64,000 nucleotides of DNA, from contig NEVA01000008.1 in NCBI GenBank assembly GCA_002304445.1, forward strand, positions 53,657 through 117,656. The letters are read 5' to 3'. Below, piece after piece: positions 11,742-33,438 of this stretch. The position numbers and the translations under genes are program-made. This stretch comes from Opitutia bacterium Tous-C4FEB (GTDB taxonomy: Bacteria > Verrucomicrobiota > Verrucomicrobiia > Opitutales > Opitutaceae). Each line of letters starts with the position of its first letter. Position 1 is the first letter of the stretch. Under the pieces are notes generated by a model that saw only the letters and a list, made by a program, of their open reading frames with translations, did not search any database and was not told the origin of the DNA.

Positions 11742-12620
11742 CTATTCGTAGCGTTGCGCCCTGCCCAGGTAGTTGAGCATCCAAATCTCCTTCCACACAC
11801 GGTAACGGCCCTCGTGGGTGATCTTGCCAAAATCTTCGCGTTCCGGGTGGGGATGGAGAAAACCCAATTCGGTGTTCAACCGGTCCAACTCATTTTGCGC
11901 GAAATTGAGATCGTTCAAAGGCTCGGTTGAAAACGAAACTGCCGTCACCTTCGCCGCCAACAGTCGCGCACGATGTCGCTCAAGCAATCGCACCAAGGAA
12001 CGGCTCCATGGACGCCGTTCAACAAACCAGTTTTCGGGATAAAAGCCGGCGAAGGGAACCGTGAGATTGTCGGTGATATAGCGCTCTCCCGCACTCGTGA
12101 TCGAAGTCAGCGTGTAGCAAAGTCCGATTGCCCCGTTGTTCTGCGGAAGAAAGGTCACCTGAACCCGCAACGTGCTCGCCGCGTCCTGATAAATTGAAAC
12201 CCGGAGATAGAGACCGCCCCCGACTTCCGCTTTGAGTGCTTGCACCTGTCGCAAGCCCTGAGCCCTGAGCCATTCCCGCACTTTCAGGAGTCGGGGCTGC
12301 ACCGGCCATTCCTCACCGGATGAATTGATCGCATAGCGTGGAAAGAGAGGCAACGGGCTTACACTCAACGCTGAAATCGCCAACCAATTGTAAAGTGTCT
12401 CCCCGAGAAACCAGATGAAGAAAAAAGCCGCGACCAACACCCAATAAGGCCGGTTAACCAGTTCGAGAAAGAGACAAAAATGTGCCGCACCAAACGAAAA
12501 AATCAGCCACCGCAACCAACGATCCGCGATCGCCAACAACGGCGATGCGTATCGAAAATTTAACTGCACAATCGCCAACGAGAGCACGATCGCCGCCAGC
12601 AACAGATATTGTACGATCAT
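11742..12620 (-). CDS. Membrane-anchored hypothetical protein
   Basis: 292 aa with about 3 N-terminal TM helices and a soluble C-terminal domain. I recognise no family. It lies in the low-G+C stretch. Confidence 0.5.
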   Translation of the reverse strand: MIVQYLLLAAIVLSLAIVQLNFRYASPLLAIADRWLRWLIFSFGAAHFCLFLELVNRPYWVLVAAFFFIWFLGETLYNWLAISALSVSPLPLFPRYAINSSGEEWPVQPRLLKVREWLRAQGLRQVQALKAEVGGGLYLRVSIYQDAASTLRVQVTFLPQNNGAIGLCYTLTSITSAGERYITDNLTVPFAGFYPENWFVERRPWSRSLVRLLERHRARLLAAKVTAVSFSTEPLNDLNFAQNELDRLNTELGFLHPHPEREDFGKITHEGRYRVWKEIWMLNYLGRAQRYE

Positions 12621-12708
12621 CTAAATGGATCGGATCACCGAACTTTAGGCGGTTTCAAACGAACAAAAAAGAAAGCTGCCGATGATAGGATTCCGCCTAA
12701 GCTTAACC

Positions 12709-13833
12709 TTAACTCAATCGGACGGGCATGATTACACAAATGAAGCTCTCAAGCGTTTTGAAAACTCCGGGACTCACTTCATCTTTCACTTCGAAAAACA
12801 CTTCGTCTTTTGTCAGCGCTTTCAGCGGATCCATGAGGAAGGCCGGATTAAACGCCACCTGAAGATCGGGACCATTGTAGCCGATTGCCATGGATTCGTG
12901 TGCTTCGCCGAAATCAGAACTCGCCGCAAAAATTTCGAGCAAATTGCTGCTGATTTTGATTTTTACCGAGTTGGCTTTTTCGGAACAGACCAACTGCGCC
13001 CGATGCACACACTGCAGCAACAATTCACGTTCCAATTTGATTCGCTGATGGGTTTCTTTTGGAACCACCTGCTGATAATTTGGATAATTTCCTTCAACCA
13101 CTTTGGAGTAGAGATACACGTGATCGATCAACCCGCTGGTATCCTTATCGGTTGAAATCTGGAACGCCGCCCGGCGTTCGTTAAAATTAATTTTTACTTT
13201 CGTTCCTTTGTCCAAAAGCCGATTCAGCTCAGAAACGGTTTTTGCCGGCAAAATGATGGCTCCGGCATTGGCTGCCGGCACTTCCATTTCTTTGGCAATC
13301 AACGCAAGCCGGCGCCCGTCCGTCGCGACCAGAGTCAATTTCTCATCCCGAAAATTAAAATAAACTCCGTTTAGAATGTAACGTGTTTCGTCGGTCGATT
13401 GCGCGTAGGAAACGCTTCGCAACATGCTGACCAGTTCGCTTTGGTCCAAGGTGTAGGCTTTTTCATCACCAAATTCGGGCAATGGCGGAAATTCGTCTTT
13501 GCCGATGCCCATGATCTTAAACGTTGAGCCACCTGACGTTAATTTCACCTGATGGTTGGGCGAACCATCGAACGTCACATCCACGCTCGGCAGCTCCCGC
13601 ACAATCGTTGCTAGTCGCTTCACTGGGAGCGTAACCGAACCGCCTTCTTTGATCTCTGCCTTGATTTTGCAACGAATGCCCAAATCGAGATTGGTCGTTG
13701 AAAGCGAAATCTGGTCTTTCTCTGCCTCAATCAACACGTTGCTCAAAATAGGCATCGTTGCTTTGGACCCTACGACATTGAGCACTTGGGCAAGGCCGTT
13801 GGCAAAATGATCACGATTGATTTTGAATTTCAT
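12709..13833 (-). CDS. dnaN: DNA polymerase III beta sliding clamp
   Basis: [53 protein letters not shown]... over 374 aa is a classic DnaN. Composition is unusual: 26-28 G+C per 60 nt in the lines I counted. Confidence 0.9.
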
Positions 13834-14068
13834 GAAGAAGGAGCAGGGGTCGGAACGTGGCGCAGGAAGAAGTTAACAAATGCCAAAAGAATAGAGGTTC
13901 AATAATGAATTATATCCGTATCACTATGGGCTGTGAGCAACTCCAATAACTCGGGGAATCTGCTCGAAAACAGAGCGGAATCTGGTCGTGAAGAACCAAG
14001 GGTTGGGCTTTGATAAGAGCGGGGTTATTCAGAGGGAAAAAGTTGTTGGGCAGTCATCGGCATGTTGC

Positions 14069-16983: not shown

Positions 16984-17526
16984 CTATTTCACTTTTGCGT
17001 AAAAAATGCAGTCGCGGGGTTCGGTGCCGATGTTGGGGGAAACGTGCCAGCGGCGAAGCAAGGCCTCGCGGGTGAGGCCGGATTTTTGCATCACGCGGCC
17101 GGAGGCGGGATTGGCGGCATCGCAATAGGCCCATACGCGGTAGACGTCGGTTTGGGCGGTCGTCCATTCGACGACGGCGGTGAGGGCCTCGGTCATCATG
17201 CCGCGGCCCCAGAATTTTTTCGCGAGCACGTAGCCGCACATGACTTTCCCGCCGTCGGGCATCAGCCCGATGGAACCGATAGGCGAATCGGTGCCGCGCA
17301 GACAGAGTAACCAGGCGTAATGCGGGCTGTTGGGACGCTCCCAATCCGCCGCCCGGTCCCGCAAGAAATCGGCTAGAAGTTCAACGTGGGAGTAGGGAGC
17401 CCAGGAAAGGTAGCGGGTCACATCCGGATCGTTGGCGTAGGCGGCAAAAACGGCGGGTGCATCCTCGGCGCGGGGGCGGCGAGCGGTGAGGCGGGCGGTG
17501 GCAAAAGTCTCGGGCGGACGAAGCAT
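16984..17526 (-). CDS. GNAT family N-acetyltransferase (RimJ/RimL-like)
   Basis: 180 aa from ATG 17526: ...IGSIGLMPDGGKVMCGYVLAKKFWGRGMMTEALTAVVEW...VWAYCDAANPASGRVMQKSGL. The track ORF extending to 18330 is a shadow extension antisense to ndh. Confidence 0.75.
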   Translation of the reverse strand: MLRPPETFATARLTARRPRAEDAPAVFAAYANDPDVTRYLSWAPYSHVELLADFLRDRAADWERPNSPHYAWLLCLRGTDSPIGSIGLMPDGGKVMCGYVLAKKFWGRGMMTEALTAVVEWTTAQTDVYRVWAYCDAANPASGRVMQKSGLTREALLRRWHVSPNIGTEPRDCIFYAKVK

Positions 17527-17637
17527 ACGCGGCGGGCGTTGGGTGACTGGGCGATAGACGCACCCGACGGTCAAACGTTGTGCGTGGGCGAAGCGGGGTT
17601 TGCGCCGCGATACGATCGTCTCTACGGTAGGTTTGGG

Positions 17638-19200
17638 ATGCATTTTGATATTGTGATCGCAGGCGGAGGTTTTGCCGGGGCGTATTGTGCGCGGGCGCTC
17701 GGTCGGGCGTTGGGGCGGGAAGAAGGCGAGCGACGGGTAGCTCTGATCGCTGAGCGCAACGTGCTCGTTTTCCAACCCATGTTGGCGGAGGTGGAGGGCT
17801 CGGCCCTCAATGCCACCGACGTGGTTAATCCTCTCCGGCAGTTTTGCCGCGGGGTGAATGTGCTGCAGGGCGCGATCCAACATATCGATTGGGCCACGAA
17901 GACCCTCACGCTCGACGGCGGGCGCTTTACGCGAAATCATGCGGTATCGTTCGATCGGTTGGTCTTGGCGCTCGGGAGCGTCACGGATTTGAGCGCGGTG
18001 CCGGGCATGGCCGACTACGGGTGGCCGATGAAAAACGTGGCCGACGCGCTGCGGCTGCGTGCGGTGATCATCAACCGGCTGGAGGAGGCGAATCTCATCG
18101 ACGACGCGGCGGTGCGGCGGCGGTTGCTCACGTTTGTCGTGGTGGGCGGCGGCTACACCGGCGTGGAGACAGCGGGGCAGCTGTTGGATTTTGTGCGCGA
18201 TGCCCATGGGTTTTACGCCAATCTGCGAGATACGGAGCCGCGGGTGATTCTCGTGCACGCCCGCGGGCAATTGTTTACGGAAATCGGCGCCGATCTGGGT
18301 GTTTACGCGGCCGAGGTGCTGGAGCGACACGGGGTGAGTGTACGCCTGAACACGCGGGTAGCCGAGGTCACCGCCACGCGGGTAATCTTAGACTGCGGCA
18401 ACTCCATCGATGCCAACACCGTGGTGACGACGATCGGCAGTTCGCCGAATCCGATCGTGCTGGACGTGTGTCGTCAGCTCGGGATCGAAGCGGTGAAAGG
18501 GCGGGTGCCGACTGCGAACACGATGCGGGTGCCGGGTCATGACGACTTGTGGATCGCGGGTGACTGTGCGGCGGTGCCTTGGAACGACCGGGGCGAGATG
18601 AAGATCGCTCCGCCCACGGCCCAGTTGGCCTTGCGGCAGGGGACCTTGCTGGGGCGAAATCTGGTGCGGGTGCTGCGGGGCGCGGAACCTTTGCCGTTTA
18701 CCTACCGTTACATGGGCCAGCTCGCGGCTATCGGTCGACGTAAGGCGGTGGCGGAGGTCATGGGTTTTCATTTCCGCGGATTTTTCGCCTGGTGGATGTG
18801 GCGCACGATCTATCTCTCCAAATTGCCGGGCACGCTGCGGAAATTGCGGGTGGTGATGGATTGGACGTTTGATCTGGTTTTCCCTCGCGACATCAGCCTG
18901 CTTTTGCCGCCGCCCGACGAGCCGTTGCGTTCGATCCATTTGGAGAAAGGGGAGATTCTCTTCACCTGCGGCGAAAAGTGCCGGTCGTTCTTCTACCTGA
19001 AACGAGGGACTCTTGCGGTTGAGCGTGGGGGAGCTGAAAGCGAAATTCTGCCGATGGGCACCGTGATCGATCAGACGAAGGTCAATGTGGACGGCTGCTG
19101 GAGCGTGACGGTCTCGGCGGAAGAGAGCTGTGATGTCATGGTGTTTCGTGGTCGGGCGCTGGAGCTGCTGCGGGCGGATTTGCGGTTGGTGAAACGCTGA
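17638..19200 (+). CDS. ndh: Type II NADH dehydrogenase (NDH-2) with an extra C-terminal cNMP-binding-like domain
   Basis: MHFDIVIAGGGFAGAYCA (FAD GxGxxG), VVGGGYTGVETAG (NAD) and IAGDCAAVP. There are about 100 extra C-terminal residues, HLEKGEILFTCGEKCRSFFYLKRGTLAV...VMVFRGRALELL. Confidence 0.8.
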   Translation: MHFDIVIAGGGFAGAYCARALGRALGREEGERRVALIAERNVLVFQPMLAEVEGSALNATDVVNPLRQFCRGVNVLQGAIQHIDWATKTLTLDGGRFTRNHAVSFDRLVLALGSVTDLSAVPGMADYGWPMKNVADALRLRAVIINRLEEANLIDDAAVRRRLLTFVVVGGGYTGVETAGQLLDFVRDAHGFYANLRDTEPRVILVHARGQLFTEIGADLGVYAAEVLERHGVSVRLNTRVAEVTATRVILDCGNSIDANTVVTTIGSSPNPIVLDVCRQLGIEAVKGRVPTANTMRVPGHDDLWIAGDCAAVPWNDRGEMKIAPPTAQLALRQGTLLGRNLVRVLRGAEPLPFTYRYMGQLAAIGRRKAVAEVMGFHFRGFFAWWMWRTIYLSKLPGTLRKLRVVMDWTFDLVFPRDISLLLPPPDEPLRSIHLEKGEILFTCGEKCRSFFYLKRGTLAVERGGAESEILPMGTVIDQTKVNVDGCWSVTVSAEESCDVMVFRGRALELLRADLRLVKR

Positions 19201-21431: not shown

Positions 21432-23231
21432 ATGACGAAGAAAAACGATTGCTCCATGCCCACGCGTCGCCAATTCCTCCGCACCGCCGCCGTCGGCGCC
21501 ACCGCTTTACCGGTCCTCGCCTCGGCCACAGCTTCGCCGGTCTCAGCCGCGCCGGCCTCGGTCGCTGTGACACCGCCCACCCGCGACGCGCTCCTCGCCC
21601 GCCATCGCAATCTCTTCAACGGCGATACCTGCGTCTATTTCTACAACCCGGAAAAATGGCAGCCCGAGGGCGGGCCGTTCTCCGCTAAAGCCATCCACCG
21701 CTACGTCGACCTGCTCGCCGACAACGGCGTCGATACCTTCGTCATCAACGCCAACGCCTCCCGCGCGTGGTATCCGAGCAAAACCATCCCGAGCATCCTC
21801 GACGGTTACCGCCGCGGCGATCGTGAGTTCTTCCGCGGCCACGCCATCTGCGCCGGCGCCACCGAGCCCGCCGCCGTCGAGAAGTATATCGATACGATCA
21901 TGGCGTTCATGAATCTCTACCAAGATCTCCTCGACACCGGTGTCGATTGGCTCGCCGAGACCGCCACCGCTTGCCGCCGGCGCGGCGTTGCCCCGTGGGT
22001 CAGCGTCCGCATGAACGATATGCACGGCCACCTCAACTACGCCGGCAGCTTCTTCAACGCCCCGCTCCTCGCGCAGCCCGCGATGCGCCTCCACCACAGC
22101 GCCTATTCGCCCACGATGCGTCTGCCTGACTATCGCTCCGGCCTTAACTACGAAAAACCCGAGGTGCGTGCCTTCATGTTCGCGCAGATCAAGGAAGTCG
22201 TCGAAGCCTACGACTTTGCCGGCCTCGAACTCGACTGGTGGCGCAACGCCCTCTGCTGCGAACCCACCGCCTCGCCCGCCACCGTCGCGCTCATGAACGA
22301 CTGGTTCCGCTCCATCCGCGCGCTCACGCAACGCCGCGCCGCGCAGACCGGCCGCGCCTATCCGTTTGGCTTCCGCATCCCCGGCCGCATCGGCGAACTC
22401 AAAGCCATCGGCATCGACGTCGAGACCCTCTGCCGCGAGGGCACGCTCGACTACGTCATCGTCTCCAATTTTTGGCGCACCTCGTGGGATATGCCGCACG
22501 ACGCCCTGCGCCGGCAACTCGGCCCGCAGGTCGCAATCTACGGCGGCATCGAAAATGGCGCCAACCGCCTCGCCGCGTTTTCTCCCGCCGCCAACGTCAC
22601 CCAGGAAATCCGCCTCACCGCCGCCAGCCGCCCGATGCTCTACGCCAACGCCGCCGGCAAACTCGCCCTCGGCGCCGACGGCATCGAGTGGTATAATTTC
22701 TTCTGCACCGACCAGGCGAAAATCCCCGGCGTGGTCTGCGACTACGGCGCCCTCCGCGATATCCACCGCCTCGACCACCTCCGCGGTCAACCGAAGCACT
22801 ACACGTTCTCCGATAAAGGCGGCACTCGCGAACAGATCCCGTTCGAGCTCGTGCCGCAGCTTCCGGTCGCCCTCGAGCGCGGCTGGCCCCACGCCTTCCG
22901 CCTGCCCATGTGCGCTGAGCCCGCCGACCGCGGTCTGGAGTTGGTCGTGCAAGTTGTGCTGAAGAAAACCGACACCTTCGCCCAACTCCCCATCGCCTTC
23001 AACGGCAGTTGGCCGCAACTCACCGCGACGCGCTCCGATTTGCTTCTATTCCCCTGCGGTTCCTTCACGCACCACAGCGCCGAACACACCGGCTACAACT
23101 ACCGTTTCCCCGTCTCCCTCCTCCGCGACGGCTGGAACGAGATCACCGTCGAAAACGGCGGCGACAAAACCATCACGGTCGTCGCGCTTGAACTGGCGGT
23201 CCAACCTGCCGCGCCCGCGGCACGGGCTTGA
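21432..23231 (+). CDS. Twin-arginine-exported hypothetical protein (possibly a glycoside-hydrolase-like TIM barrel)
   Basis: N-terminus ...MPTRRQFLRTAAVGATALPVLASA is a Tat signal. Of the 599 aa I recognise no family for the rest. Confidence 0.55.
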   Translation: MTKKNDCSMPTRRQFLRTAAVGATALPVLASATASPVSAAPASVAVTPPTRDALLARHRNLFNGDTCVYFYNPEKWQPEGGPFSAKAIHRYVDLLADNGVDTFVINANASRAWYPSKTIPSILDGYRRGDREFFRGHAICAGATEPAAVEKYIDTIMAFMNLYQDLLDTGVDWLAETATACRRRGVAPWVSVRMNDMHGHLNYAGSFFNAPLLAQPAMRLHHSAYSPTMRLPDYRSGLNYEKPEVRAFMFAQIKEVVEAYDFAGLELDWWRNALCCEPTASPATVALMNDWFRSIRALTQRRAAQTGRAYPFGFRIPGRIGELKAIGIDVETLCREGTLDYVIVSNFWRTSWDMPHDALRRQLGPQVAIYGGIENGANRLAAFSPAANVTQEIRLTAASRPMLYANAAGKLALGADGIEWYNFFCTDQAKIPGVVCDYGALRDIHRLDHLRGQPKHYTFSDKGGTREQIPFELVPQLPVALERGWPHAFRLPMCAEPADRGLELVVQVVLKKTDTFAQLPIAFNGSWPQLTATRSDLLLFPCGSFTHHSAEHTGYNYRFPVSLLRDGWNEITVENGGDKTITVVALELAVQPAAPAARA

Positions 23232-25522: not shown

Positions 25523-26677
25523 TCAGGCTGTAGCCGCGAGAAACGCCGTATCCAGCGCCAGCTTCGCCGTTTTGCCGTTCGCCGCCGTGATCAAGATGCC
25601 ACTGCCACCCGCCTGCGCCTGCACATTCGCGACGATATCGAAGCCGCGCGGAATCGCCGTGACCGCGAAGATGTGCGGCACGCGCAACGGCTTTTTGGGC
25701 GAGAGGTTGATCGTCGTGGGATAACCCGCCGCGCTGAGCGGATTCGGTTTCGCGGACTCCGCTTGGCCGAAGTGGAAATACGACGTCGTTTCCTCCAGCC
25801 CGAGCACGTTGCGGTGCCGGCCGCTCCATGGCGCGTAGTGGCGGCCGCCATTTGAGTGCCAGAGGATCGTGTGCCGCAGGATTTCCGGGTTCTTCAACTG
25901 GAGAAAGACCCAGCCGTCTTTCGGAAACGTCACCGCGGTCCAGCCGATGGAGCGGCCCGGTTTTCCCATGAGCATCACGAGATCGTCGAACCCCGCGCGC
26001 GCCGGATAGCGCGTGAGGTCGGCCGTGCCGCCGTTGGCGAGCGGCACCGCGTTCAGATTATCAAACCGCGCGCTTGGCTTGAGCGACGAGTAGCCGCCGG
26101 TCGCCGGATCCTCAAACGGCACAGGCAACACCTGCCCATGGTCCCAGCCGCCGGCCGAGATCCGCGCGTGGCCTTCCGGCCCGGGGAGATGCAGACACGG
26201 ATGCGTGCCGAGCGCCAGCGGTCCGCTAAAGCCGCTCAAGGTATGTTCGCAGTAAATCGCGGTGTGTCCTGGGCGCAGCGTGATGCGTTTGTCGATTACG
26301 CCGGCGCACACCTTCGTCTTCAGCCGTAGGTGGAGCGACGCCGCTTCCTTGCCCCGCGTCGCGTCCACCCACGTCCAATCCGCGTTGGCCGATTCGCCGT
26401 GTGGCGGATGCTTTTCGCCGCGCCACGCCACGCCGTTGCCGCCGAACGGCGCGCAGAAAAAATCACCGCGCAGCGCGTGCAACAGTGGCGGCAGGCCGGC
26501 GTCGATTTTCTCACCGGCCCACGGGGCGACGGCAAACGGCTGCACGGCGCGCCCGCCCGGCAGGTTAAACGTCGCGGGCGCCATCATACCGGCGGTGCGG
26601 GTGACGAAAAGTTCGACGGTGTTGCTTTTTAGCCGCCAGCTGGGTTGGCCCGATTTTGAAACCAAAGGTGACTTCAT
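25523..26677 (-). CDS. Conserved hypothetical protein (galactose-mutarotase/DUF4432-like beta-sandwich suspected)
   Basis: 384 aa from ATG 26677: MKSPLVSKSGQPSWRLKSNTVELFVTRTAG... The fold guess is weak. Confidence 0.45.
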   Translation of the reverse strand: MKSPLVSKSGQPSWRLKSNTVELFVTRTAGMMAPATFNLPGGRAVQPFAVAPWAGEKIDAGLPPLLHALRGDFFCAPFGGNGVAWRGEKHPPHGESANADWTWVDATRGKEAASLHLRLKTKVCAGVIDKRITLRPGHTAIYCEHTLSGFSGPLALGTHPCLHLPGPEGHARISAGGWDHGQVLPVPFEDPATGGYSSLKPSARFDNLNAVPLANGGTADLTRYPARAGFDDLVMLMGKPGRSIGWTAVTFPKDGWVFLQLKNPEILRHTILWHSNGGRHYAPWSGRHRNVLGLEETTSYFHFGQAESAKPNPLSAAGYPTTINLSPKKPLRVPHIFAVTAIPRGFDIVANVQAQAGGSGILITAANGKTAKLALDTAFLAATA

Positions 26678-26728
26678 GGGGAAAAGCACAGTTGCCGCGA
26701 CGCGCCGAGGCAAGCGGCGGCGCGCACG

Positions 26729-27721: not shown

Positions 27722-28552
27722 TCAAAAGACACGCGTAAGGTAGTCTCGTCCGCGAAGGCCGCGCGCCAAGGTATCGGCAACGGATTCGTTTTCCCGGGCG
27801 GACATTTCGATGATCAGTCCGCCCTCGAAACGATAACGCCGGAGTTCGCCGAGGAGCCAAGGCCAGTCGATGCTGCCTTCGCCGGGAATGAGATGGGCGT
27901 CGCGGTCACCGAGGTTGTCGTTGATGTGAACCATCCGGAGGTGGCCGGAGAGTTTGTGCACCACGGTGCCGAGGTCGCCGCTGAGCCGGGCGTGGCCGGT
28001 ATCGAGACAGGCGCCGACGGTGCAGGTGTTGATCGAGCCGAGAAGGAACATGAGGTCGCCGGTCGGGCCGAAGAGCAGGTGAGGCAACATGTTTTCAAGC
28101 TGGAGCTGAATGCCTTGTTCGCAGCAAAAGGCGGCGACCTGATTGAGTGAGACGGCCGCGTGCTGGATGCGCTGTTGAAATTCTTCGGCGGGCGGGCGGC
28201 CGGAGTGCTCGGGGCCGGGGTGCAGGACGATGTTCTCCGCGCCGAGCAAGGCGGCGGCCCGGCAAGCGACGATGAGTTCGGCCACCGCCGCGGCGCGGAT
28301 GGCGGGGTCAAGCGAGGTGATGTCGATCCGATCGGCGAACGGGGCGTGAAAGGAGTAAGGCCGGAGGCCGAGGGCGCGGATCAGTTCGCCGGCCCGGCGG
28401 ACCTCGCCCTCGCGGTGGTAGTCGAGGTGGGCGGGAAAGGAGCAGACCTCGATCGCGTCGAATCCGCTCTCGCGGATAGATTCCAGCACGGTGAAAATGC
28501 TGCGCCGGTAAAAGCAACCGGTGGACAGACCAATGGGCCAAGCCGGACTCAT
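27722..28552 (-). CDS. Xylose-isomerase-like TIM-barrel protein (AP-endonuclease-2 superfamily: sugar-phosphate isomerase/epimerase or Nfo-like)
   Basis: Metal-ligand string FHAPF, VLHPG, QLEN, CLDTGH, VHINDN..GDRDAHLIPGEGSIDW, IIEM. ATG 28552 overlaps the stop of the upstream gene (ATGA). Confidence 0.7.
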   Translation of the reverse strand: MSPAWPIGLSTGCFYRRSIFTVLESIRESGFDAIEVCSFPAHLDYHREGEVRRAGELIRALGLRPYSFHAPFADRIDITSLDPAIRAAAVAELIVACRAAALLGAENIVLHPGPEHSGRPPAEEFQQRIQHAAVSLNQVAAFCCEQGIQLQLENMLPHLLFGPTGDLMFLLGSINTCTVGACLDTGHARLSGDLGTVVHKLSGHLRMVHINDNLGDRDAHLIPGEGSIDWPWLLGELRRYRFEGGLIIEMSARENESVADTLARGLRGRDYLTRVF

Positions 28553-29949
28553 GAAAGCGAAGGAGCGAGCAGGGACCGGCGACACGGTTCGAGGTCGCAG
28601 GAGCCGTGGGCAGGCGGAAAGCAGAAGCCTTTCTCCCGGTTCGAGGTGCAGCTCAGGTCGCCGAGCTGATCAAGGCCGACGGCGATCTGGCCGGCGAACA
28701 GCCGGGTGTAGAAATCGGCGCGGAGGGCGGGCGCGTAGTCGCTCCAATCGACGCCCCAGTGGTAGGCGGGGTTTTCGAATTTTGAGCGAATGAAGCCCGC
28801 GATGTGGCGGGGATGCCAACCGGCGGCGAGCAGGCAGCGGGTGGCGAGTTGCATGCCGGCGGGTTTGAGCAGGAGATCGTTGGGCCAAGTAGCGAGGTGG
28901 CGCATGCAGGCGGGCAGCGGCTCGAGCGGGGTGCGGTCATACGTTTGGGCCCAGCGACCGGCGGCATCATGATGTTCGGCGTAGTAGTGCAGGTGAAACC
29001 GCCGCAGGGCCGAGGTGAGGTAGTCGTGGAGGAGGCGCGCGGTGCCGGCTTCTTGGATTGGAATGCGGACGCAAGCACGCTGGGCGAGGGCGCAGACCTC
29101 TGCATCGACGGAACGAAATTTGACCGCTTGCCGGGCGTCGATTTCATGCAAAGGCAGACTGTAGATCGCCGGCAACCCGGGGGCGGAGTCCACGCGGTGG
29201 GCGAGGCCAAGGAACGACGGTTTGCAATACCGGGTGAAGGGCATGCGAAGGGAGCGGGTGTGCAGCGGGTCGCCATACTCGGAGATGTCGATCGAGATGA
29301 TTTCGCGACGGCCGGTGGCGGTTGGGCCGACATGCACGGCGGTGATCTCCACGGGAATCTCGGTGACGTGCCCGGCGGCTGCTTTTTCGCGATGGGCGAG
29401 ATACTCCATCACGAGAGCGGTCGCCGCGAAGACGCCGTGGGCCCGGAGGTCGATGGATTTCCGGTGCGTTGGCGGCACCCGTTGTGCGCAGGCGTCGAGC
29501 AGTTCGGGTGCAGGGCCCAGCGCGTCGAGCAAATCAGCCGAGGGAGAGTTTCGAGCGATACTCCAGATGAAGTGATGGCCCTGCCCGGTGATGAGGTGAA
29601 GCGGGCGAATGCCCAAGCCGAGCAGGAGAGCCTCGACGGTTTGGGCTGCCGGCTCCAGTAAAGCGAACGTGCGTTCGGGATCGAGATAGGCTTGGACGGG
29701 CGAATCAAAGTTCACGTAGTCCACATCGACGTGAAAAAGGATTGATTCGGAGTCGGCCAGAGATCGGGCGATGTCCGTCCCCGCCTCGAGCAGCCGGTCA
29801 AGTTCGGCGGGGCGTCGTAAACGCGCTCGGTCGAAATTGTAGCCGTCGGTGTGGGTGAGGTAAATGGCCGTGGCGCGGTCCAACGACCCGCCCCCTAAAA
29901 ACTCAATGAGCCGATCACGCACGGCGGGATGAGCGTAGAGGGGGGACAT
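28549..29949 (-). CDS. Hypothetical protein with AEP (PriS-like) primase-polymerase motifs and a PriL-like Cys-cluster C-terminus
   Basis: 466 aa. Contains ILFHVDVDYV (DxD), LITGQGHHFIW (GxGxH), SIDISEYGDPLHTRSLRMPFTRYCK, LPACMRHL...GWHPRHIAGFIRSKF, and Cys at 434, 443, 451 and 456. The ORF is well supported. The function is inference. Confidence 0.45.
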   Translation of the reverse strand: MSPLYAHPAVRDRLIEFLGGGSLDRATAIYLTHTDGYNFDRARLRRPAELDRLLEAGTDIARSLADSESILFHVDVDYVNFDSPVQAYLDPERTFALLEPAAQTVEALLLGLGIRPLHLITGQGHHFIWSIARNSPSADLLDALGPAPELLDACAQRVPPTHRKSIDLRAHGVFAATALVMEYLAHREKAAAGHVTEIPVEITAVHVGPTATGRREIISIDISEYGDPLHTRSLRMPFTRYCKPSFLGLAHRVDSAPGLPAIYSLPLHEIDARQAVKFRSVDAEVCALAQRACVRIPIQEAGTARLLHDYLTSALRRFHLHYYAEHHDAAGRWAQTYDRTPLEPLPACMRHLATWPNDLLLKPAGMQLATRCLLAAGWHPRHIAGFIRSKFENPAYHWGVDWSDYAPALRADFYTRLFAGQIAVGLDQLGDLSCTSNREKGFCFPPAHGSCDLEPCRRSLLAPSLS

Positions 29950-31154: not shown

Positions 31155-31638
31155 GATTTAGGGGCGGGTTGAGAATCGGAGGTTAAGGTGGCGGTCGATT
31201 CGACCGGATCGGCCGGGGAGGGGCCGGCGAGAGAGAGCGTGGAAGTCGGGGCGTTCATCGTGGCGGGGGTGGGACCGGCTTTGGCGGGAGGGGTGGTGGT
31301 GAACGGAGTTTGGAGAGCAGTGAGGCTTTCTGTACTCTACTCTATTGGCTGAGGGATGCTCCGCTTCCTTTGCCCAAAGTGAGGCGGATCTTGGCCGCCT
31401 CTACCGGCGACGAGAGGAGGCGCCGCAGAGGTTTTGGCGGTTTTGGCGGACTTGAAATCATCGAGCCCTCGGTCTGGACCGGATGCGGAACATGCCGAGG
31501 GCGTCGCCTCGGGCAGGCGGTGAACCAACAACAAACGAGCCCCTATAAAGTGGGGGCGCGAAAGGTTTGAAGCTTGAGCTTGTGGGGTGGGCATTGGTTT
31601 GTGGGGTGTGTCGTGTTTCACCCCCATCCCACCATCCC

Positions 31639-32484
31639 ATGAGAATCGGTCTTAACTCCTTCCTTTACGCGTCTCCGTTCACCACCGAGAGCACCAAGCT
31701 CTTCGCCAAGTTCAAGAAGTGGGGCTTCGATACGGTCGAAATCCCGGTAGAAGACCCAAGTCACATCGACCCCGTGAAAGTCCGCGCGGCCGCCGAGAAA
31801 GCCGGTATCGCCATCGGTAGCATTTGCGCCTGCATGGGGCCGGGTCGCGATTTCCGTGGCTCTGATGAGGACCAGAAAGCCGGCATGGATTATTGCATGG
31901 CGCTCATCGATCAGGCCGCCGTCATGGGCTGTCCCCGCGTGATCGGTCCGATTTATTCCGTGGTCGGAAAGGCCGATGCCGTCGAGCCGGCCCAACAGAA
32001 GATCGAGTGGGCGCTCGTGGTGAAGAATCTCAAAGTCCTCGCGAAGCACGCCGAGGCCAAGGGCGTCGAGATCTGCATCGAGCCGCTCAATCGTTTCGAA
32101 ACCGATTTCCTCAACACCAGCGACCAAGGCCTGCGGCTCGTAAAGGCCGTCGGCTCGAAGGCGGTGAAGCTCCACCTCGACACTTTCCACATGAACATCG
32201 AGGAGAAGAATCAGGCCGCCGCCATCCGCAAGGTGGGCAAATTGCTGGGGCACTTTCATGCCTGCGGCAGCGACCGTGGTACGCCGGGCGGGGACCACAT
32301 CGCGTGGCCGGAAATCGTCAAAGCGCTCAAGGCGATCGGCTACAAAGGCGATGTCGTGATCGAGTCGTTTACGACCGACGTGAAGGTGATCGCCCGTGCC
32401 GCCGCCATCTGGCGCAAGATCGAGCCGAAGCGCGACGATATCGCGGTCAACGGCCTCAAGTTCCTGCGTAAAGTTCTCAAGTAA
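31639..32484 (+). CDS. Sugar phosphate isomerase/epimerase (ketose 3-epimerase-like TIM barrel)
   Basis: MRIGLNSFLY...GFDTVEIPV...ICIEPLNRFETDFLNT...LHLDTFHMNIEE...FHACGSDRGTPGGDHIAW...VVIESFT. Trimmed to ATG 31639. Confidence 0.75.
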   Translation: MRIGLNSFLYASPFTTESTKLFAKFKKWGFDTVEIPVEDPSHIDPVKVRAAAEKAGIAIGSICACMGPGRDFRGSDEDQKAGMDYCMALIDQAAVMGCPRVIGPIYSVVGKADAVEPAQQKIEWALVVKNLKVLAKHAEAKGVEICIEPLNRFETDFLNTSDQGLRLVKAVGSKAVKLHLDTFHMNIEEKNQAAAIRKVGKLLGHFHACGSDRGTPGGDHIAWPEIVKALKAIGYKGDVVIESFTTDVKVIARAAAIWRKIEPKRDDIAVNGLKFLRKVLK

Positions 32485-32517: not shown

Positions 32518-33438
32518 ATGAAACTGTCCCTGACACTTGCGTTCATTGCGGCCGTTTTTGCCGCCGGCGGCGTGCATGCAGCCGACAAAAAAATCGTGCT
32601 GATCGCCGGCAAGCCCAGCCACGGGCCGGGGGCGCATGAGCACCGTGCGGGCTGTCTATTGTTTCAAAAATGCCTCGCCGGTTTTCCGGGGGCGAACGTC
32701 GTCGTTTACGACGGCGGTTGGCCGACGAAGCAGGTGGACGGAAAAGCGGTGGACGACGACGCGGCCCTCGATGACGCGGCGGCGATCGTTTTCTACAGTG
32801 ACGGCGGCGAGAAACACCCGGCGTTGGTCGGAGACCGGTTGGCGGTGCTCGGCCGGCAGGTGAAACGCGGGGCGGGCATCGGGGCCATTCACTACGCCGT
32901 CGAGCCGACGAAAGAGAAAGGTCAGGCCGAGTGGATCGACTGGATCGGGGGCGCGTTTGAGATCCACTGGTCGGTGAATCCGCACTGGGATGGAGATTTC
33001 AAAACGTTGCCGGTACATGCGACCACGCGGGGCGTAAAACCGTTCACGACCCGCGACGAATGGTATTTCAACATGCGTTTCCGCCCGGGCATGAAAAACG
33101 TCACGCCGATCCTCGAGGCAGTGCCGCCGGCCGACACCATGAGCCGGCCGGATGGCAAGCACTCGGGCAATCCCGCGGTGCGCGAACAGGTCGCCAAAAA
33201 GGTGCCGCAAACGGTGATGTGGACTTCCGAGAATGAGGCCGGCGGCCGTGGATTCGGGTTTACAGGCGGACACTTTCACGCGAGCTGGCAAAAGGAAGAC
33301 CAGCGCAAACTCATGCTCAACGCGATCGTCTGGCTGGCGCATCTCGAAGTGCCGGCGGGTGGGGTGGTCTCGAGCGTGAGCGGCGCGGAGATTGCGGCGA
33401 ATCTCGATCCGAAGCCCGCGCCGAAGAAAAAGTCTTAG
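32518..33438 (+). CDS. ThuA-domain protein (secreted)
   Basis: Signal MKLSLTLAFIAAVFAAGGVHA, then KKIVLIAGKPSHGPGAHEH...DEWYFNMRF...VMWTSENE... matches the ThuA-like pattern. Confidence 0.7.
   Translation: MKLSLTLAFIAAVFAAGGVHAADKKIVLIAGKPSHGPGAHEHRAGCLLFQKCLAGFPGANVVVYDGGWPTKQVDGKAVDDDAALDDAAAIVFYSDGGEKHPALVGDRLAVLGRQVKRGAGIGAIHYAVEPTKEKGQAEWIDWIGGAFEIHWSVNPHWDGDFKTLPVHATTRGVKPFTTRDEWYFNMRFRPGMKNVTPILEAVPPADTMSRPDGKHSGNPAVREQVAKKVPQTVMWTSENEAGGRGFGFTGGHFHASWQKEDQRKLMLNAIVWLAHLEVPAGGVVSSVSGAEIAANLDPKPAPKKKS

What the first reader, a model, noticed from the sequence alone, without database searches (positions are those of the whole stretch)
28549..29949. Orphan 466-aa protein reads like a single-chain PriS-PriL (archaeo-eukaryotic primase) homologue
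I cannot name a family for this reverse-strand ORF. By eye it lines up with the AEP catalytic core.
- Motif I (hhhDhD) is ILFHVDVDYV, with D75 and D77 (nt about 29719-29733).
- About 45 aa later, motif II (sGxGxH) is LITGQGHHFIW (residues 119-129). It is preceded by the usual hydrophobic helix, TVEALLLGLGI.
- About 95 aa further on there is a motif-III-like segment, SIDISEYGDPLHTRSLRMPFTRYCK. This is an acidic residue followed by R..R.P....K, as in the PriS/prim-pol pattern D......R(l/i).R.PGS.n.K.

The C-terminal third resembles the Fe-S domain of the primase large subunit.
- LPACMRHLATWPNDLLLKPAGMQLATRCLLAAGWHPRHIAGFIRSKF compares with the PriL signature as I remember it, PPC(M/I)..L......L.H..R.Q..LFLK.IG......F....F.
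- Further Cys then occur at 434 (LSC), 443 (GFCF), 451 and 456. PriL places its remaining 4Fe-4S ligands in this region (..SC.., ..GCPF..).

Bacteria normally prime with DnaG. Known bacterial AEPs are mostly LigD-type NHEJ polymerases or mobile-element prim-pols. This gene has no ligase, Ku, helicase, integrase or phage neighbour.
Basis: partly seen in the sequence, partly recalled or inferred. Interest (0 to 1): 0.85.

Follow-up and report, generated by a model that had tools for sequence, protein, structure and literature searches.

The report
Primase-like enzyme paired with repair nuclease
This chromosomal gene encodes an unnamed but widespread bacterial protein whose predicted structure matches archaeal/eukaryotic-type DNA primase-polymerases, and it is almost always coupled to an endonuclease IV-like enzyme, which suggests an undescribed DNA repair or priming module.

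Summary

**Not an orphan.** It has more than 1,287 homologues, 615 clusters at 50% identity and 336 GTDB species. Most are Verrucomicrobiota. Others are Thermodesulfobacteriota, Elusimicrobia and an archaeal-looking contig. It matches no Pfam, NCBIfam, PHROG, PADLOC or PDB-sequence family.

**N-terminal domain.** A confident AlphaFold model (pLDDT 89) retrieves almost only AEP primase-polymerases, led by LigD-Pol at probability 0.99. The three AEP catalytic motifs are 92-100% conserved across relatives only 24-46% identical.

**C-terminal domain.** This helical domain carries a conserved four-Cys signature. It resembles the PriL Fe-S domain only weakly, and no single test is significant.

**Missed partner.** The downstream gene (27722..28552) overlaps by ATGA. 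It keeps all nine endonuclease IV metal ligands. The two genes are adjacent or fused in 81 of 81 loci where enough flanking sequence was available. No other neighbour is conserved. No copy was found in phages, plasmids or viral contigs.

**Verdict.** The AEP reading is supported. The PriL reading is suggestive only. The most likely function is a chromosomal module that incises or cleans DNA ends and then synthesises. This function is inferred, not shown.

The parts
28549..29949 (-). Gene for the 466-aa AEP-like protein (stop codon 28549-28551)
   Evidence: ORF list. More than 1,287 homologues and 615 clusters at 50% identity. AF2 model with pLDDT 89.
29149..29949 (-). N-terminal domain (about residues 1-267) with a predicted AEP (primase-polymerase) fold
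   Evidence: Foldseek against PDB: LigD-Pol 2r9l E 0.037, probability 0.99, TM 0.48. Prim-PolC, CAPP, pRN1 and PrimPol also match. BFVD returns primase-helicases.
29707..29742 (-). AEP motif I, ILFHVDVDYVNF (D75, D77), on a beta-strand
   Evidence: Translation. D75 in 75/79 and D/E77 in 75/79. Strand E69-80 in the model.
29563..29601 (-). AEP motif II, LHLITGQGHHFIW (T121-G-x-G-x-H126), at a beta-hairpin
   Evidence: Translation. G124 in 79/79, H126 in 73/79, G122 in 71/79. hhalign puts it in register with PRIM1 SGRRGVH, but not significantly.
29221..29295 (-). AEP motif III region, SIDISEYGDPLHTRSLRMPFTRYCK (D221; R232, R235, K243)
   Evidence: Translation. D221 in 79/79, R232 in 76/79, R235 in 74/79, F238 in 75/79, K243 in 69/79.
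28552..29148 (-). C-terminal all-helical domain (residues 268-466) with a four-Cys signature (C348, C434, C443, C451); weakly like PriL-CTD/PriCT
   Evidence: AF2 domain model with pLDDT 85. Foldseek gave 11 hits, 4 of them primase accessory domains, none significant. PF04104 at E 0.03-0.35. Cys signature in 71/79. hhalign P about 0.02.
27722..28552 (-). Translationally coupled partner gene (276 aa from ATG 28552; ATGA overlap with the stop of the AEP-like gene): endonuclease IV-like three-metal TIM barrel
   Evidence: PF01261 at E 8e-36. All nine E. coli Nfo metal ligands are invariant in 81/81 orthologues. Adjacent or fused in 81/81 informative loci. Junction sequence.

Best explanation
[quoted passage not shown] It belongs to a previously unnamed, chromosomally inherited family.

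Its N-terminal domain carries the AEP two-metal active site: D75 and D/E77 of motif I, D221 of motif III, and the nucleotide-binding sGxGxH126 of motif II. Its C-terminal helical domain holds four conserved cysteines that probably bind a metal centre. A [4Fe-4S] cluster, as in the PriL C-terminal domain, is the leading guess. By analogy with PriL-CTD and PriCT domains, this domain would hold the template and the initiating (or 5'-end) nucleotide.

The protein works with the translationally coupled, sometimes fused, downstream protein. That partner has the complete trinuclear metal site of endonuclease IV.

Inferred mechanism:
1. The endonuclease IV-like partner incises at abasic or otherwise damaged sites, or removes 3'-blocking groups, and leaves a 3'-OH.
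2. The AEP then fills the gap, extends the end, or primes afresh next to the lesion.

In effect this would be a ligase-less, Ku-less counterpart of the polymerase plus phosphoesterase pairing in LigD, or of Prim-PolC working with EndoIV in mycobacterial base excision repair.

What is shown here: the fold assignment, motif conservation, the Cys signature, the partner's ligand set, and the gene coupling. What is inferred: metal identity, substrate, activities and order of action.
For: **Fold and motifs**
- Fold.
- Motif conservation across sequences 24-46% identical.
- The motif II consensus (TGRGYHFVW) and the motif III consensus (LD.S.YGDP...R..R.PFS.Y.K) resemble PriS SGRRGVH and LD.NVS...HLLK.PFS.H.K. 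hhalign gives the same register for motifs I and II.
- Four-Cys signature in 71/79.
- Weak but specific PriL-CTD signals.

**Partner**
- PF01261.
- All nine Nfo ligands are invariant in 81/81.
- A second PF01261 protein in the same window lacks the four EndoIV-specific ligands.
- The nearest solved relatives are MJ1311 and TTHB071. Both are listed in the literature as EndoIV/AP-endonuclease-like.

**Coupling**
- 78 loci have a separate gene directly downstream, 2 are fused, and 1 has the order reversed, out of 81 informative loci. Most junctions show ATGA overlaps.
- About a quarter of the top database hits are fusions.
- The pairing persists in Thermodesulfobacteriota, in a CBS-fused form and in an archaeal-looking contig.
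- No other neighbour is conserved.

**Not mobile**
- No homologue in 72,556 plasmids, 50,697 phages or IMG/VR.
- No PADLOC or PHROG hit.

**Precedents**
- Prim-PolC and LigC work with EndoIV in BER (PMC5663958).
- Single-chain PriS-PriL NEQ395 (PMC10250227).
- PriCT and PriL-CTD are related (PMC5862659).
Against: **No significant sequence-level link to any AEP or PriL family**
- Pfam, NCBIfam and PDB searches are empty.
- hhalign probabilities are 1-5%.
- Column-shuffle controls: 17/150 reach the observed score for the N-domain against PRIM1, and 2/150 for the C-domain against PriL.
- The cross-control of the C-domain against PRIM1 scores about the same.

**Structural evidence is modest**
- Foldseek E-values are modest (0.04) and TM is 0.48.
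- The C-domain hits have E 5-9.
- I could not inspect model coordinates, so the clustering of the acidic triad and of the four Cys was not verified.

**The C-domain differs from PriL**
- The Cys spacing (C-x~86-C-x8-C-x4-8-C) differs from PriL.
- It could bind Zn rather than Fe-S.

**Nothing ties the pair to DNA damage**
- There is no LexA-type box or other conserved upstream motif.
- There is no repair-gene neighbourhood.

**The partner need not act on DNA**
- Its best NCBIfam match is the cobamide phosphodiesterase CbiR, far below cutoff.
- Some distant members lack the partner or sit beside thiM/thiE or a phosphoribosyltransferase.
Confidence: 0.5

Rival explanations
1. The pair acts on a non-DNA substrate. 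The AEP-like domain would be a nucleotidyl transferase, and the TIM barrel a CbiR-like phosphodiesterase, in cofactor, nucleotide-loop or small-molecule metabolism.
For: - The partner's best NCBIfam hit is the cobamide remodelling phosphodiesterase CbiR (3e-12).
- One subfamily carries an N-terminal CBS pair, which is typical of metabolite-regulated enzymes.
- Distant members lie beside thiM/thiE, a phosphoribosyltransferase and a rhodanese, or an adenine deaminase.
- Window neighbours are metabolic genes.
- There is no SOS box.
Against: - The CbiR score (46 bits) is far below its cutoff (105).
- These neighbours are not conserved.
- Every structural relative of the N-domain is a nucleic-acid polymerase.
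- The full AEP triad plus a PriL/PriCT-like helper domain is the signature of template-dependent initiation.
- The nine-ligand site is that of a DNA phosphodiesterase.
Confidence: 0.17
2. It is a true de novo primase used for repriming or replication restart on the chromosome, a bacterial functional analogue of eukaryotic PrimPol or of PriSL, rather than a gap-filling repair polymerase. The nuclease partner would process the bypassed lesion or the primer.
For: - The motif signatures are PriS-like.
- The C-terminal four-Cys helical domain resembles the module that primases need for dinucleotide formation.
- Inheritance is chromosomal and not linked to mobile elements.
Against: - The PriL-CTD homology is statistically unproven.
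- No helicase, SSB or replisome gene is linked.
- The top structural matches are repair AEPs, LigD-Pol and Prim-PolC, not replicative PriS.
Confidence: 0.18
3. It is a mobile-element or anti-phage prim-pol, like most bacterial AEPs.
For: Most bacterial AEP families outside LigD are encoded by mobile elements (PMC5862659). BFVD fold matches are phage primase-helicases.
Against: - No homologue in plasmid, phage or IMG/VR collections.
- No PADLOC or PHROG match.
- No integrase, helicase or phage genes nearby.
- Flanks are housekeeping genes and differ between genomes.
- Identity to the query is highest in two Opitutaceae-labelled genomes (90-94%) and 50-66% in the other Verrucomicrobiota listed.
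Confidence: 0.04
4. It is not an AEP at all. The motif resemblance and weak fold hits are coincidental, and the family has an unrelated fold and function.
For: No sequence or profile method reaches significance. Foldseek E-values are only 0.04 to 1.
Against: - 9 of the best 11 PDB matches are AEPs, as are the top BFVD matches, from a template-free high-confidence model.
- The three motifs fall on the expected strand, hairpin and strand elements.
- They are among the most conserved positions in the family.
Confidence: 0.08

Closest known systems
Bacterial repair AEPs: LigD polymerase domain and Prim-PolC (mycobacteria)
   Same: - Best structural matches to the model.
- Chromosomal bacterial AEPs.
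- They work with a 3'-end-cleaning phosphoesterase: the LigD PE domain, or EndoIV in the Prim-PolC/LigC BER pathway (PMC5663958).
   Different: - No ligase or Ku is linked.
- No match to PF21686.
- An extra 200-aa four-Cys helical domain is present.
- The partner is a TIM-barrel EndoIV-like enzyme that is genetically fused or coupled.
- One Prosthecobacter MAG examined (L001) also carries a canonical LigD 7 kb away.
Single-chain PriS-PriL primases (N. equitans NEQ395; PolpTN2) and heterodimeric PriS/PriL
   Same: - A catalytic AEP domain is followed in one chain by a helical Cys-containing domain.
- Motif II and III signatures look PriS-like.
- The LPxC...F segment aligns in register with PriL FPPCM.
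   Different: - Homology is statistically unsupported.
- There is no PriL N-terminal domain and no PriS Zn-knuckle.
- The Cys spacing is different.
- The host is bacterial and has its own DnaG-type replication.
- The EndoIV-like partner is obligate.
- The model is compact (pTM 0.91), not a flexibly tethered CTD.
MGE prim-pols with PriCT-1/PriCT-2 helper domains (pRN1 ORF904, RepB', PrimPol-PV1 supergroup)
   Same: An AEP domain is fused to a helix-bundle helper domain. pRN1, RepB' and DUF927-type proteins appear among the fold matches.
   Different: - It is not found on plasmids, phages or viral contigs.
- There is no helicase domain.
- The four-Cys signature is conserved.
Endonuclease IV (Nfo) and the EndoIV-like TIM barrels MJ1311 and TTHB071 (for the partner)
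   Same: Same PF01261 fold. All nine Nfo metal ligands are conserved. The closest solved sequences are MJ1311 and TTHB071.
   Different: - It scores far below the Nfo equivalog cutoffs (31 against 244 bits).
- Its activity is unknown.
- It is uniquely coupled or fused to an AEP-like protein.

Membership tests
AEP (archaeo-eukaryotic primase / prim-pol) superfamily | Motif I hhhDhD/E on a beta-strand | tested here: met
   ILFHVDVDY. D75 in 75/79 and D/E77 in 75/79. Strand 69-80 in the model.
AEP (archaeo-eukaryotic primase / prim-pol) superfamily | Motif II sGxGxH | tested here: met
   T121-G-Q-G-H-H126. G124 in 79/79, H126 in 73/79, T/S121 in 76/79.
AEP (archaeo-eukaryotic primase / prim-pol) superfamily | Motif III acidic residue (hD) on a strand, followed by basic residues | tested here: met
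   D221 in 79/79. R232, R235 and K243 are conserved. Strand 216-222.
AEP (archaeo-eukaryotic primase / prim-pol) superfamily | AEP catalytic fold (structural similarity to solved AEPs) | tested here: met
   Foldseek: LigD-Pol at probability 0.99, E 0.037, TM 0.48. 9 of the best 11 PDB hits are AEPs. BFVD returns primase-helicases. Coordinates were not inspectable.
AEP (archaeo-eukaryotic primase / prim-pol) superfamily | Significant sequence or profile match to a curated AEP family (PF01896, PF21686, PF09250 and others) | tested here: not met
   No Pfam or NCBIfam hit, even for family consensus sequences. hhalign against PRIM1 gives P 0.009-0.08, and 17/150 shuffles reach the score.
AEP (archaeo-eukaryotic primase / prim-pol) superfamily | Template-dependent primase or polymerase activity | not testable with these tools
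   Needs biochemistry.
PriL C-terminal Fe-S domain (PF04104) / PriCT | Significant profile match | tested here: inconclusive
   PF04104 at E 0.029-0.35, below the cutoff. hhalign is in the expected register with P 0.02 and 2/150 shuffles, but the cross-control is similar.
PriL C-terminal Fe-S domain (PF04104) / PriCT | Four conserved cluster-ligating cysteines, the first in a PPC motif at a helix start | tested here: met
   LPxC348 + C434-x8-C443-x(2-8)-C in 71/79. The spacing of the last three differs from PriL (x16, x39).
PriL C-terminal Fe-S domain (PF04104) / PriCT | Structural similarity to solved p58C / PriL-CTD | tested here: inconclusive
   Domain model with pLDDT 85. Yeast p58C at TM 0.33-0.37, plus Xenopus PRIM2 and RepB', among only 11 hits. 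All have E 5-9.
PriL C-terminal Fe-S domain (PF04104) / PriCT | Bound [4Fe-4S] cluster | not testable with these tools
   Needs UV-vis/EPR or an anaerobic purification.
PriL (full large subunit) | N-terminal helical domain that docks on PriS | not tested
   Only about 200 residues follow the catalytic domain, which leaves no room for a PriL-NTD. This was not compared explicitly.
LigD-type NHEJ polymerase | Genetic link to an ATP-dependent ligase and Ku | tested here: not met
   None in the window. No conserved neighbour other than the TIM barrel in 83 loci.
Endonuclease IV family (partner gene) | Nine ligands of the trinuclear metal site | tested here: met
   H69, H111, E153, D184, H187, H209, D218, H220 and E249 are invariant in 81/81. 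H69 was placed by motif because MAFFT gapped it.
Endonuclease IV family (partner gene) | Score above the curated Nfo equivalog cutoff | tested here: not met
   31 bits against a cutoff of 244 (NF002198). The best NCBIfam hit is CbiR at 46 against 105.
MGE-encoded prim-pols (PrimPol-PV1, DUF927 and others) | Location on plasmids, phages or integrated elements, often fused to a helicase | tested here: not met
   No tblastn hit in plasmids or phages, and none in IMG/VR. No helicase domain. Flanks are housekeeping genes.

The most novel reading that the evidence does not exclude
A vertically inherited, non-mobile bacterial (and possibly archaeal) primase-polymerase carries a PriL-like Fe-S helper domain and forms an obligate two-enzyme machine with an endonuclease IV-like nuclease. 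The nuclease would open or clean a lesion, and the AEP would initiate or extend synthesis there. This would be a previously unrecognised DNA damage repair or repriming pathway. It would show that PriS/PriL-type priming chemistry is part of core bacterial chromosome maintenance outside NHEJ.
Probability: 0.25. Interest if true: 0.8.

Novelty: new variant of a known kind. Interest (0 to 1): 0.66.

Why it matters
Bacterial AEPs are currently thought of in two groups: LigD/Prim-PolC repair polymerases, and primases of mobile elements. This family fits neither group.

- It is large: 615 clusters at 50% identity and at least 336 species.
- It is chromosomal and has no curated name.
- It combines an intact AEP active site with a conserved four-Cys helical domain.
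- It has a near-obligate endonuclease IV-like partner, and the two genes are sometimes fused, which points to a shared function.

If the inferred function holds, it defines a new repair or priming module. It also gives a compact, soluble bacterial system for testing what a PriL-like metal domain does for an AEP, a question the NEQ395 paper describes as unresolved. In addition, it would assign a function to an EndoIV-like TIM-barrel subgroup (the MJ1311/TTHB071 type) that is routinely mis-annotated as 'sugar phosphate isomerase/epimerase'.

Tried and rejected
**Sequence and profile searches of the AEP-like protein**
- Pfam, NCBIfam, PHROGs, PADLOC and PDB searches gave nothing. I ran them on the protein, on profiles of 48 and 79 sequences, and on family consensus sequences.
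- hhalign against a single LigD-Pol sequence from L001 was uninformative.
- hhalign against 113 eukaryotic PriL-CTDs and 100 vertebrate PRIM1s gave the expected registers but non-significant scores.
- Column-shuffle, reversed and cross controls show that these comparisons cannot establish homology.
- The PRIM1 set was vertebrate-only (Neff 2.3), which limits its power.

**Search for regulation and other partners**
- A Verrucomicrobia-type LexA box (TGTTC-N4-GAACA) or any shared upstream 7-mer in 86 upstream regions: none found.
- Conserved neighbours beyond the TIM barrel: none found.

**Ideas rejected**
- MGE or defence origin.
- Partner as a sugar isomerase. It has the five ligand positions (Nfo H69, H109, H182, D229, H231) beyond the sugar-isomerase-type E-D-H-E set. 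The second PF01261 protein in the window lacks four of them: H69, H109, D229 and H231.

**Things that could not be done**
- The search for related loci with the diverse alignment failed because no stretch was conserved enough.
- Iyer et al. 2005 (the AEP classification) is not in the held library. I therefore could not check whether it mentions this family.
- Model coordinates are not exposed, so I could not measure the distances between the acidic triad residues or between the Cys.
Full report
**1. Observation**

The reverse-strand ORF 28549..29949 exists, starts with ATG and encodes 466 aa.
- ILFHVDVDYVNF is residues 70-81, with D75 and D77.
- LHLITGQGHHFIW is residues 117-129.
- SIDISEYGDPLHTRSLRMPFTRYCK is residues 219-243, with D221.
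- LPACMRH...IRSKF is residues 345-391.
- Cys are at 348, 434, 443, 451 and 456.

**2. A large unnamed family, not an orphan**

- The protein has no hit in Pfam, NCBIfam, PHROGs, PADLOC or PDB sequences. This holds even with profiles and consensus sequences.
- It has more than 1,287 homologues in the 5.8-billion protein set.
- It has 615 clusters among the 50%-identity representatives.
- Relatives occur in 336 GTDB species genomes.
- The best 80 genome loci are all Verrucomicrobiota. The closest are Opitutaceae MAGs at 90-94% identity.
- More distant members (24-46% identity) come from Thermodesulfobacteriota, Elusimicrobia and unclassified bacteria.
- One contig has archaeal-type neighbours, NAC and Sec61-beta.
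- All names given by sources are 'hypothetical protein'.

**3. Conservation**

| Position | Conserved in |
|---|---|
| D75 | 75/79 |
| D/E77 | 75/79 |
| G124 | 79/79 |
| H126 | 73/79 |
| D221 | 79/79 |
| R232 | 76/79 |
| R235 | 74/79 |
| K243 | 69/79 |

H125 is usually Tyr. C154, C293 and C456 are not conserved. A four-Cys signature, LPxC348 ... C434-x8-C443-x(2-8)-C, is present in 71/79.

**4. Fold**

- A template-free AlphaFold2 model is confident: pLDDT 89.1 and pTM 0.91.
- Motif I lies on strand 69-80, motif II at the 117-132 hairpin, and motif III on strand 216-222.
- Foldseek against the PDB returns AEPs as 9 of the best 11 matches.
- These are Mtb LigD-Pol (E 0.037, probability 0.99, TM 0.48 on the target), Prim-PolC and the CAPP prim-pol. 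pRN1, AsfvPrimPol, human PrimPol and Pol alpha-primase follow lower down.
- Against viral models it returns DUF927 and primase-helicase proteins, RepB, and 'Primase C-terminal 2' proteins.
- The E-values are modest, but the specificity of the hit list is not compatible with chance.
- I take the AEP fold of residues 1-267 as well supported (about 0.85-0.9).

**5. C-terminal domain**

- A separate model of residues 268-466 (pLDDT 85) gave only 11 Foldseek hits with E below 10. None is significant.
- Four of the 11 are primase accessory domains: Xenopus PRIM2, yeast p58C twice (TM 0.33-0.37) and RepB'.
- PF04104 (primase large subunit) is the only Pfam family that recurs. It hits one member at E 0.029 and two consensus sequences at E 0.16-0.35, in the right region.
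- I rebuilt a PriL-CTD alignment from verified human and yeast sequences.
- In controls, 2/150 column shuffles reach that score. The cross-comparison of the C-domain with PRIM1 scores about the same.
- The N-domain against vertebrate PRIM1 aligns motif I to motif II in register (D75=D109, D77=D111, H126=H166). This is also non-significant: P 0.009-0.08, and 17/150 shuffles reach the score.

Conclusion: a Cys-ligated metal domain is very likely. Homology to PriL-CTD or PriCT is plausible (about 0.5) but unproven.

**6. The missed partner**

- The next gene downstream (27722..28552) starts at an ATG that overlaps the stop of the AEP-like gene as ATGA.
- It is a PF01261 TIM barrel at E 8e-36.
- Of 83 related loci, 81 had enough downstream sequence to judge. 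In 78 of these the TIM barrel is a separate ORF directly downstream, mostly with ATGA overlaps. In 2 it is fused, and in 1 it is directly upstream.
- About a quarter of the top database homologues are 745-777-aa fusions.
- The pairing persists in a Thermodesulfobacteriota contig and in a CBS-domain-fused subfamily.
- It also persists, in reversed order, on the archaeal-looking contig.
- No other neighbour is conserved.
- Aligned with verified E. coli Nfo, all nine ligands of the endonuclease IV trinuclear metal site are invariant in 81/81 partner sequences.
- A second PF01261 protein in the same window (31567..32484) lacks the four EndoIV-specific ligands.
- The nearest solved relatives are MJ1311 (4.5e-16) and TTHB071 (1e-9). 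Mtb EndoIV also scores 4.5e-5, with several ketose epimerases at comparable E-values.
- MJ1311 and TTHB071 are treated in the literature as EndoIV or AP-endonuclease homologues.
- The partner is therefore a three-metal phosphoesterase, not a sugar isomerase as some source annotations say.

**7. Not a mobile element**

- There is no tblastn match in 72,556 plasmids or 50,697 phage records.
- There is none in IMG/VR.
- There is no defence-system model match.
- Window neighbours are housekeeping genes: a GMC oxidoreductase, a cytochrome c, a DedA-type membrane protein, ThuA, an NAD-epimerase and glutamate synthase.
- There is no tRNA or Rfam element in the window.
- The flanks differ between genomes.

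**8. Mechanism**

Shown:
- An AEP-fold domain with an intact acidic triad and the sGxGxH motif.
- A conserved four-Cys helical domain.
- An EndoIV-type metal site in a translationally coupled or fused partner.

Inferred: the partner creates or cleans a 3'-OH at abasic or blocked sites, and the AEP fills, extends or primes there.

Precedents:
- LigD combines an AEP with a 3'-phosphoesterase.
- Mycobacterial Prim-PolC/LigC repairs most efficiently with EndoIV as the gap-processing enzyme (PMC5663958).
- Helper domains related to PriL-CTD are what AEPs use for initiation (PMC5862659; PMC10250227).

Against this reading:
- There is no SOS-type box or conserved upstream motif.
- There is no repair neighbourhood.
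- The partner's best NCBIfam relative is the cobamide phosphodiesterase CbiR, though below cutoff.
- There are scattered metabolic neighbours and a CBS fusion. A small-molecule role therefore remains a live rival (about 0.17).

**9. Comparison and novelty**

The family works like a repair or priming AEP. It fails membership of every curated AEP family at the sequence level. It lacks the ligase and Ku of LigD systems. It lacks the helicase and mobile-element context of prim-pols. Unlike NEQ395 or PolpTN2 it has no demonstrable PriL homology and no PriL N-terminal domain.

I found no paper describing an AEP/EndoIV-like pair. The foundational 2005 AEP classification could not be consulted.

I rate it a new variant of a known kind: a new family-level lineage of the AEP superfamily with a new, conserved partner.

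**10. Verdict**

The AEP reading holds. The PriL-like reading is suggestive only. 'Orphan' is wrong, and the key partner was missed.
- Interest is 0.66. A specialist would be surprised by a large, chromosomal, non-mobile bacterial AEP family with a PriL-like Cys domain tied to an EndoIV-like nuclease, and it is directly testable.

Noticed in passing
window 12709..13833 (-), and 12001-14000: dnaN (beta sliding clamp, three Pfam domains) lies in the only low-GC stretch of the window (49% against about 64%). This is where the cumulative GC skew reaches its minimum, so it may be near the replication origin. No dnaA was identified among the ORFs scanned next to it.
   Followed up: partly
window 31567..32484 (+) and 32518..33438 (+): A second PF01261 TIM barrel sits next to a ThuA-family gene. 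It lacks the EndoIV-specific ligands (equivalents of H69, H109, D229, H231), so it is the sugar-isomerase type. It serves as a useful internal contrast to the partner gene.
   Followed up: yes
window 17386..19200 (+): A type-II NADH dehydrogenase (Pyr_redox_2 + NDH2_C) carries a C-terminal cyclic-nucleotide-binding domain, which seemed an unusual combination.
   Followed up: no
L086 8001-10737 and L087 7469-10205 (Elusimicrobia): Two tandem paralogues of the AEP-like gene occur here. The second keeps the acidic motifs but lacks the LPxC and C-terminal Cys (hhalign probability 99.9 to the family). There is no TIM-barrel partner. thiM and thiE lie directly upstream. The two paralogues might form a heterodimer.
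   Followed up: partly
L092 4857-7626: On a contig with archaeal-type genes (NAC, Sec61-beta, beta-CASP RNase), a 390-aa PF01261 gene lies directly upstream of a 541-aa family member and overlaps it. The pairing therefore exists in reversed order, probably in an archaeon.
   Followed up: partly
L093 983-3627 (protein P0227): A subfamily carries an N-terminal CBS-domain pair fused to the AEP-like protein. It is still followed by the overlapping TIM-barrel gene, which hints at regulation by an adenosyl ligand.
   Followed up: partly
L001 1-1168: The Prosthecobacter MAG carries a canonical LigD (ligase plus LigD_Prim-Pol genes) 7 kb from the pair. The new family is therefore additional to LigD, not a replacement for it.
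   Followed up: no
window 21432..23231 (+) and 25523..26713 (-): Two long ORFs (599 aa and 396 aa) have no Pfam match.
   Followed up: no
L090 1221-4440: In one distant member, the AEP-like gene is flanked by a rhodanese-domain gene and an overlapping phosphoribosyltransferase gene. The PF01261 gene is 3 kb away.
   Followed up: no
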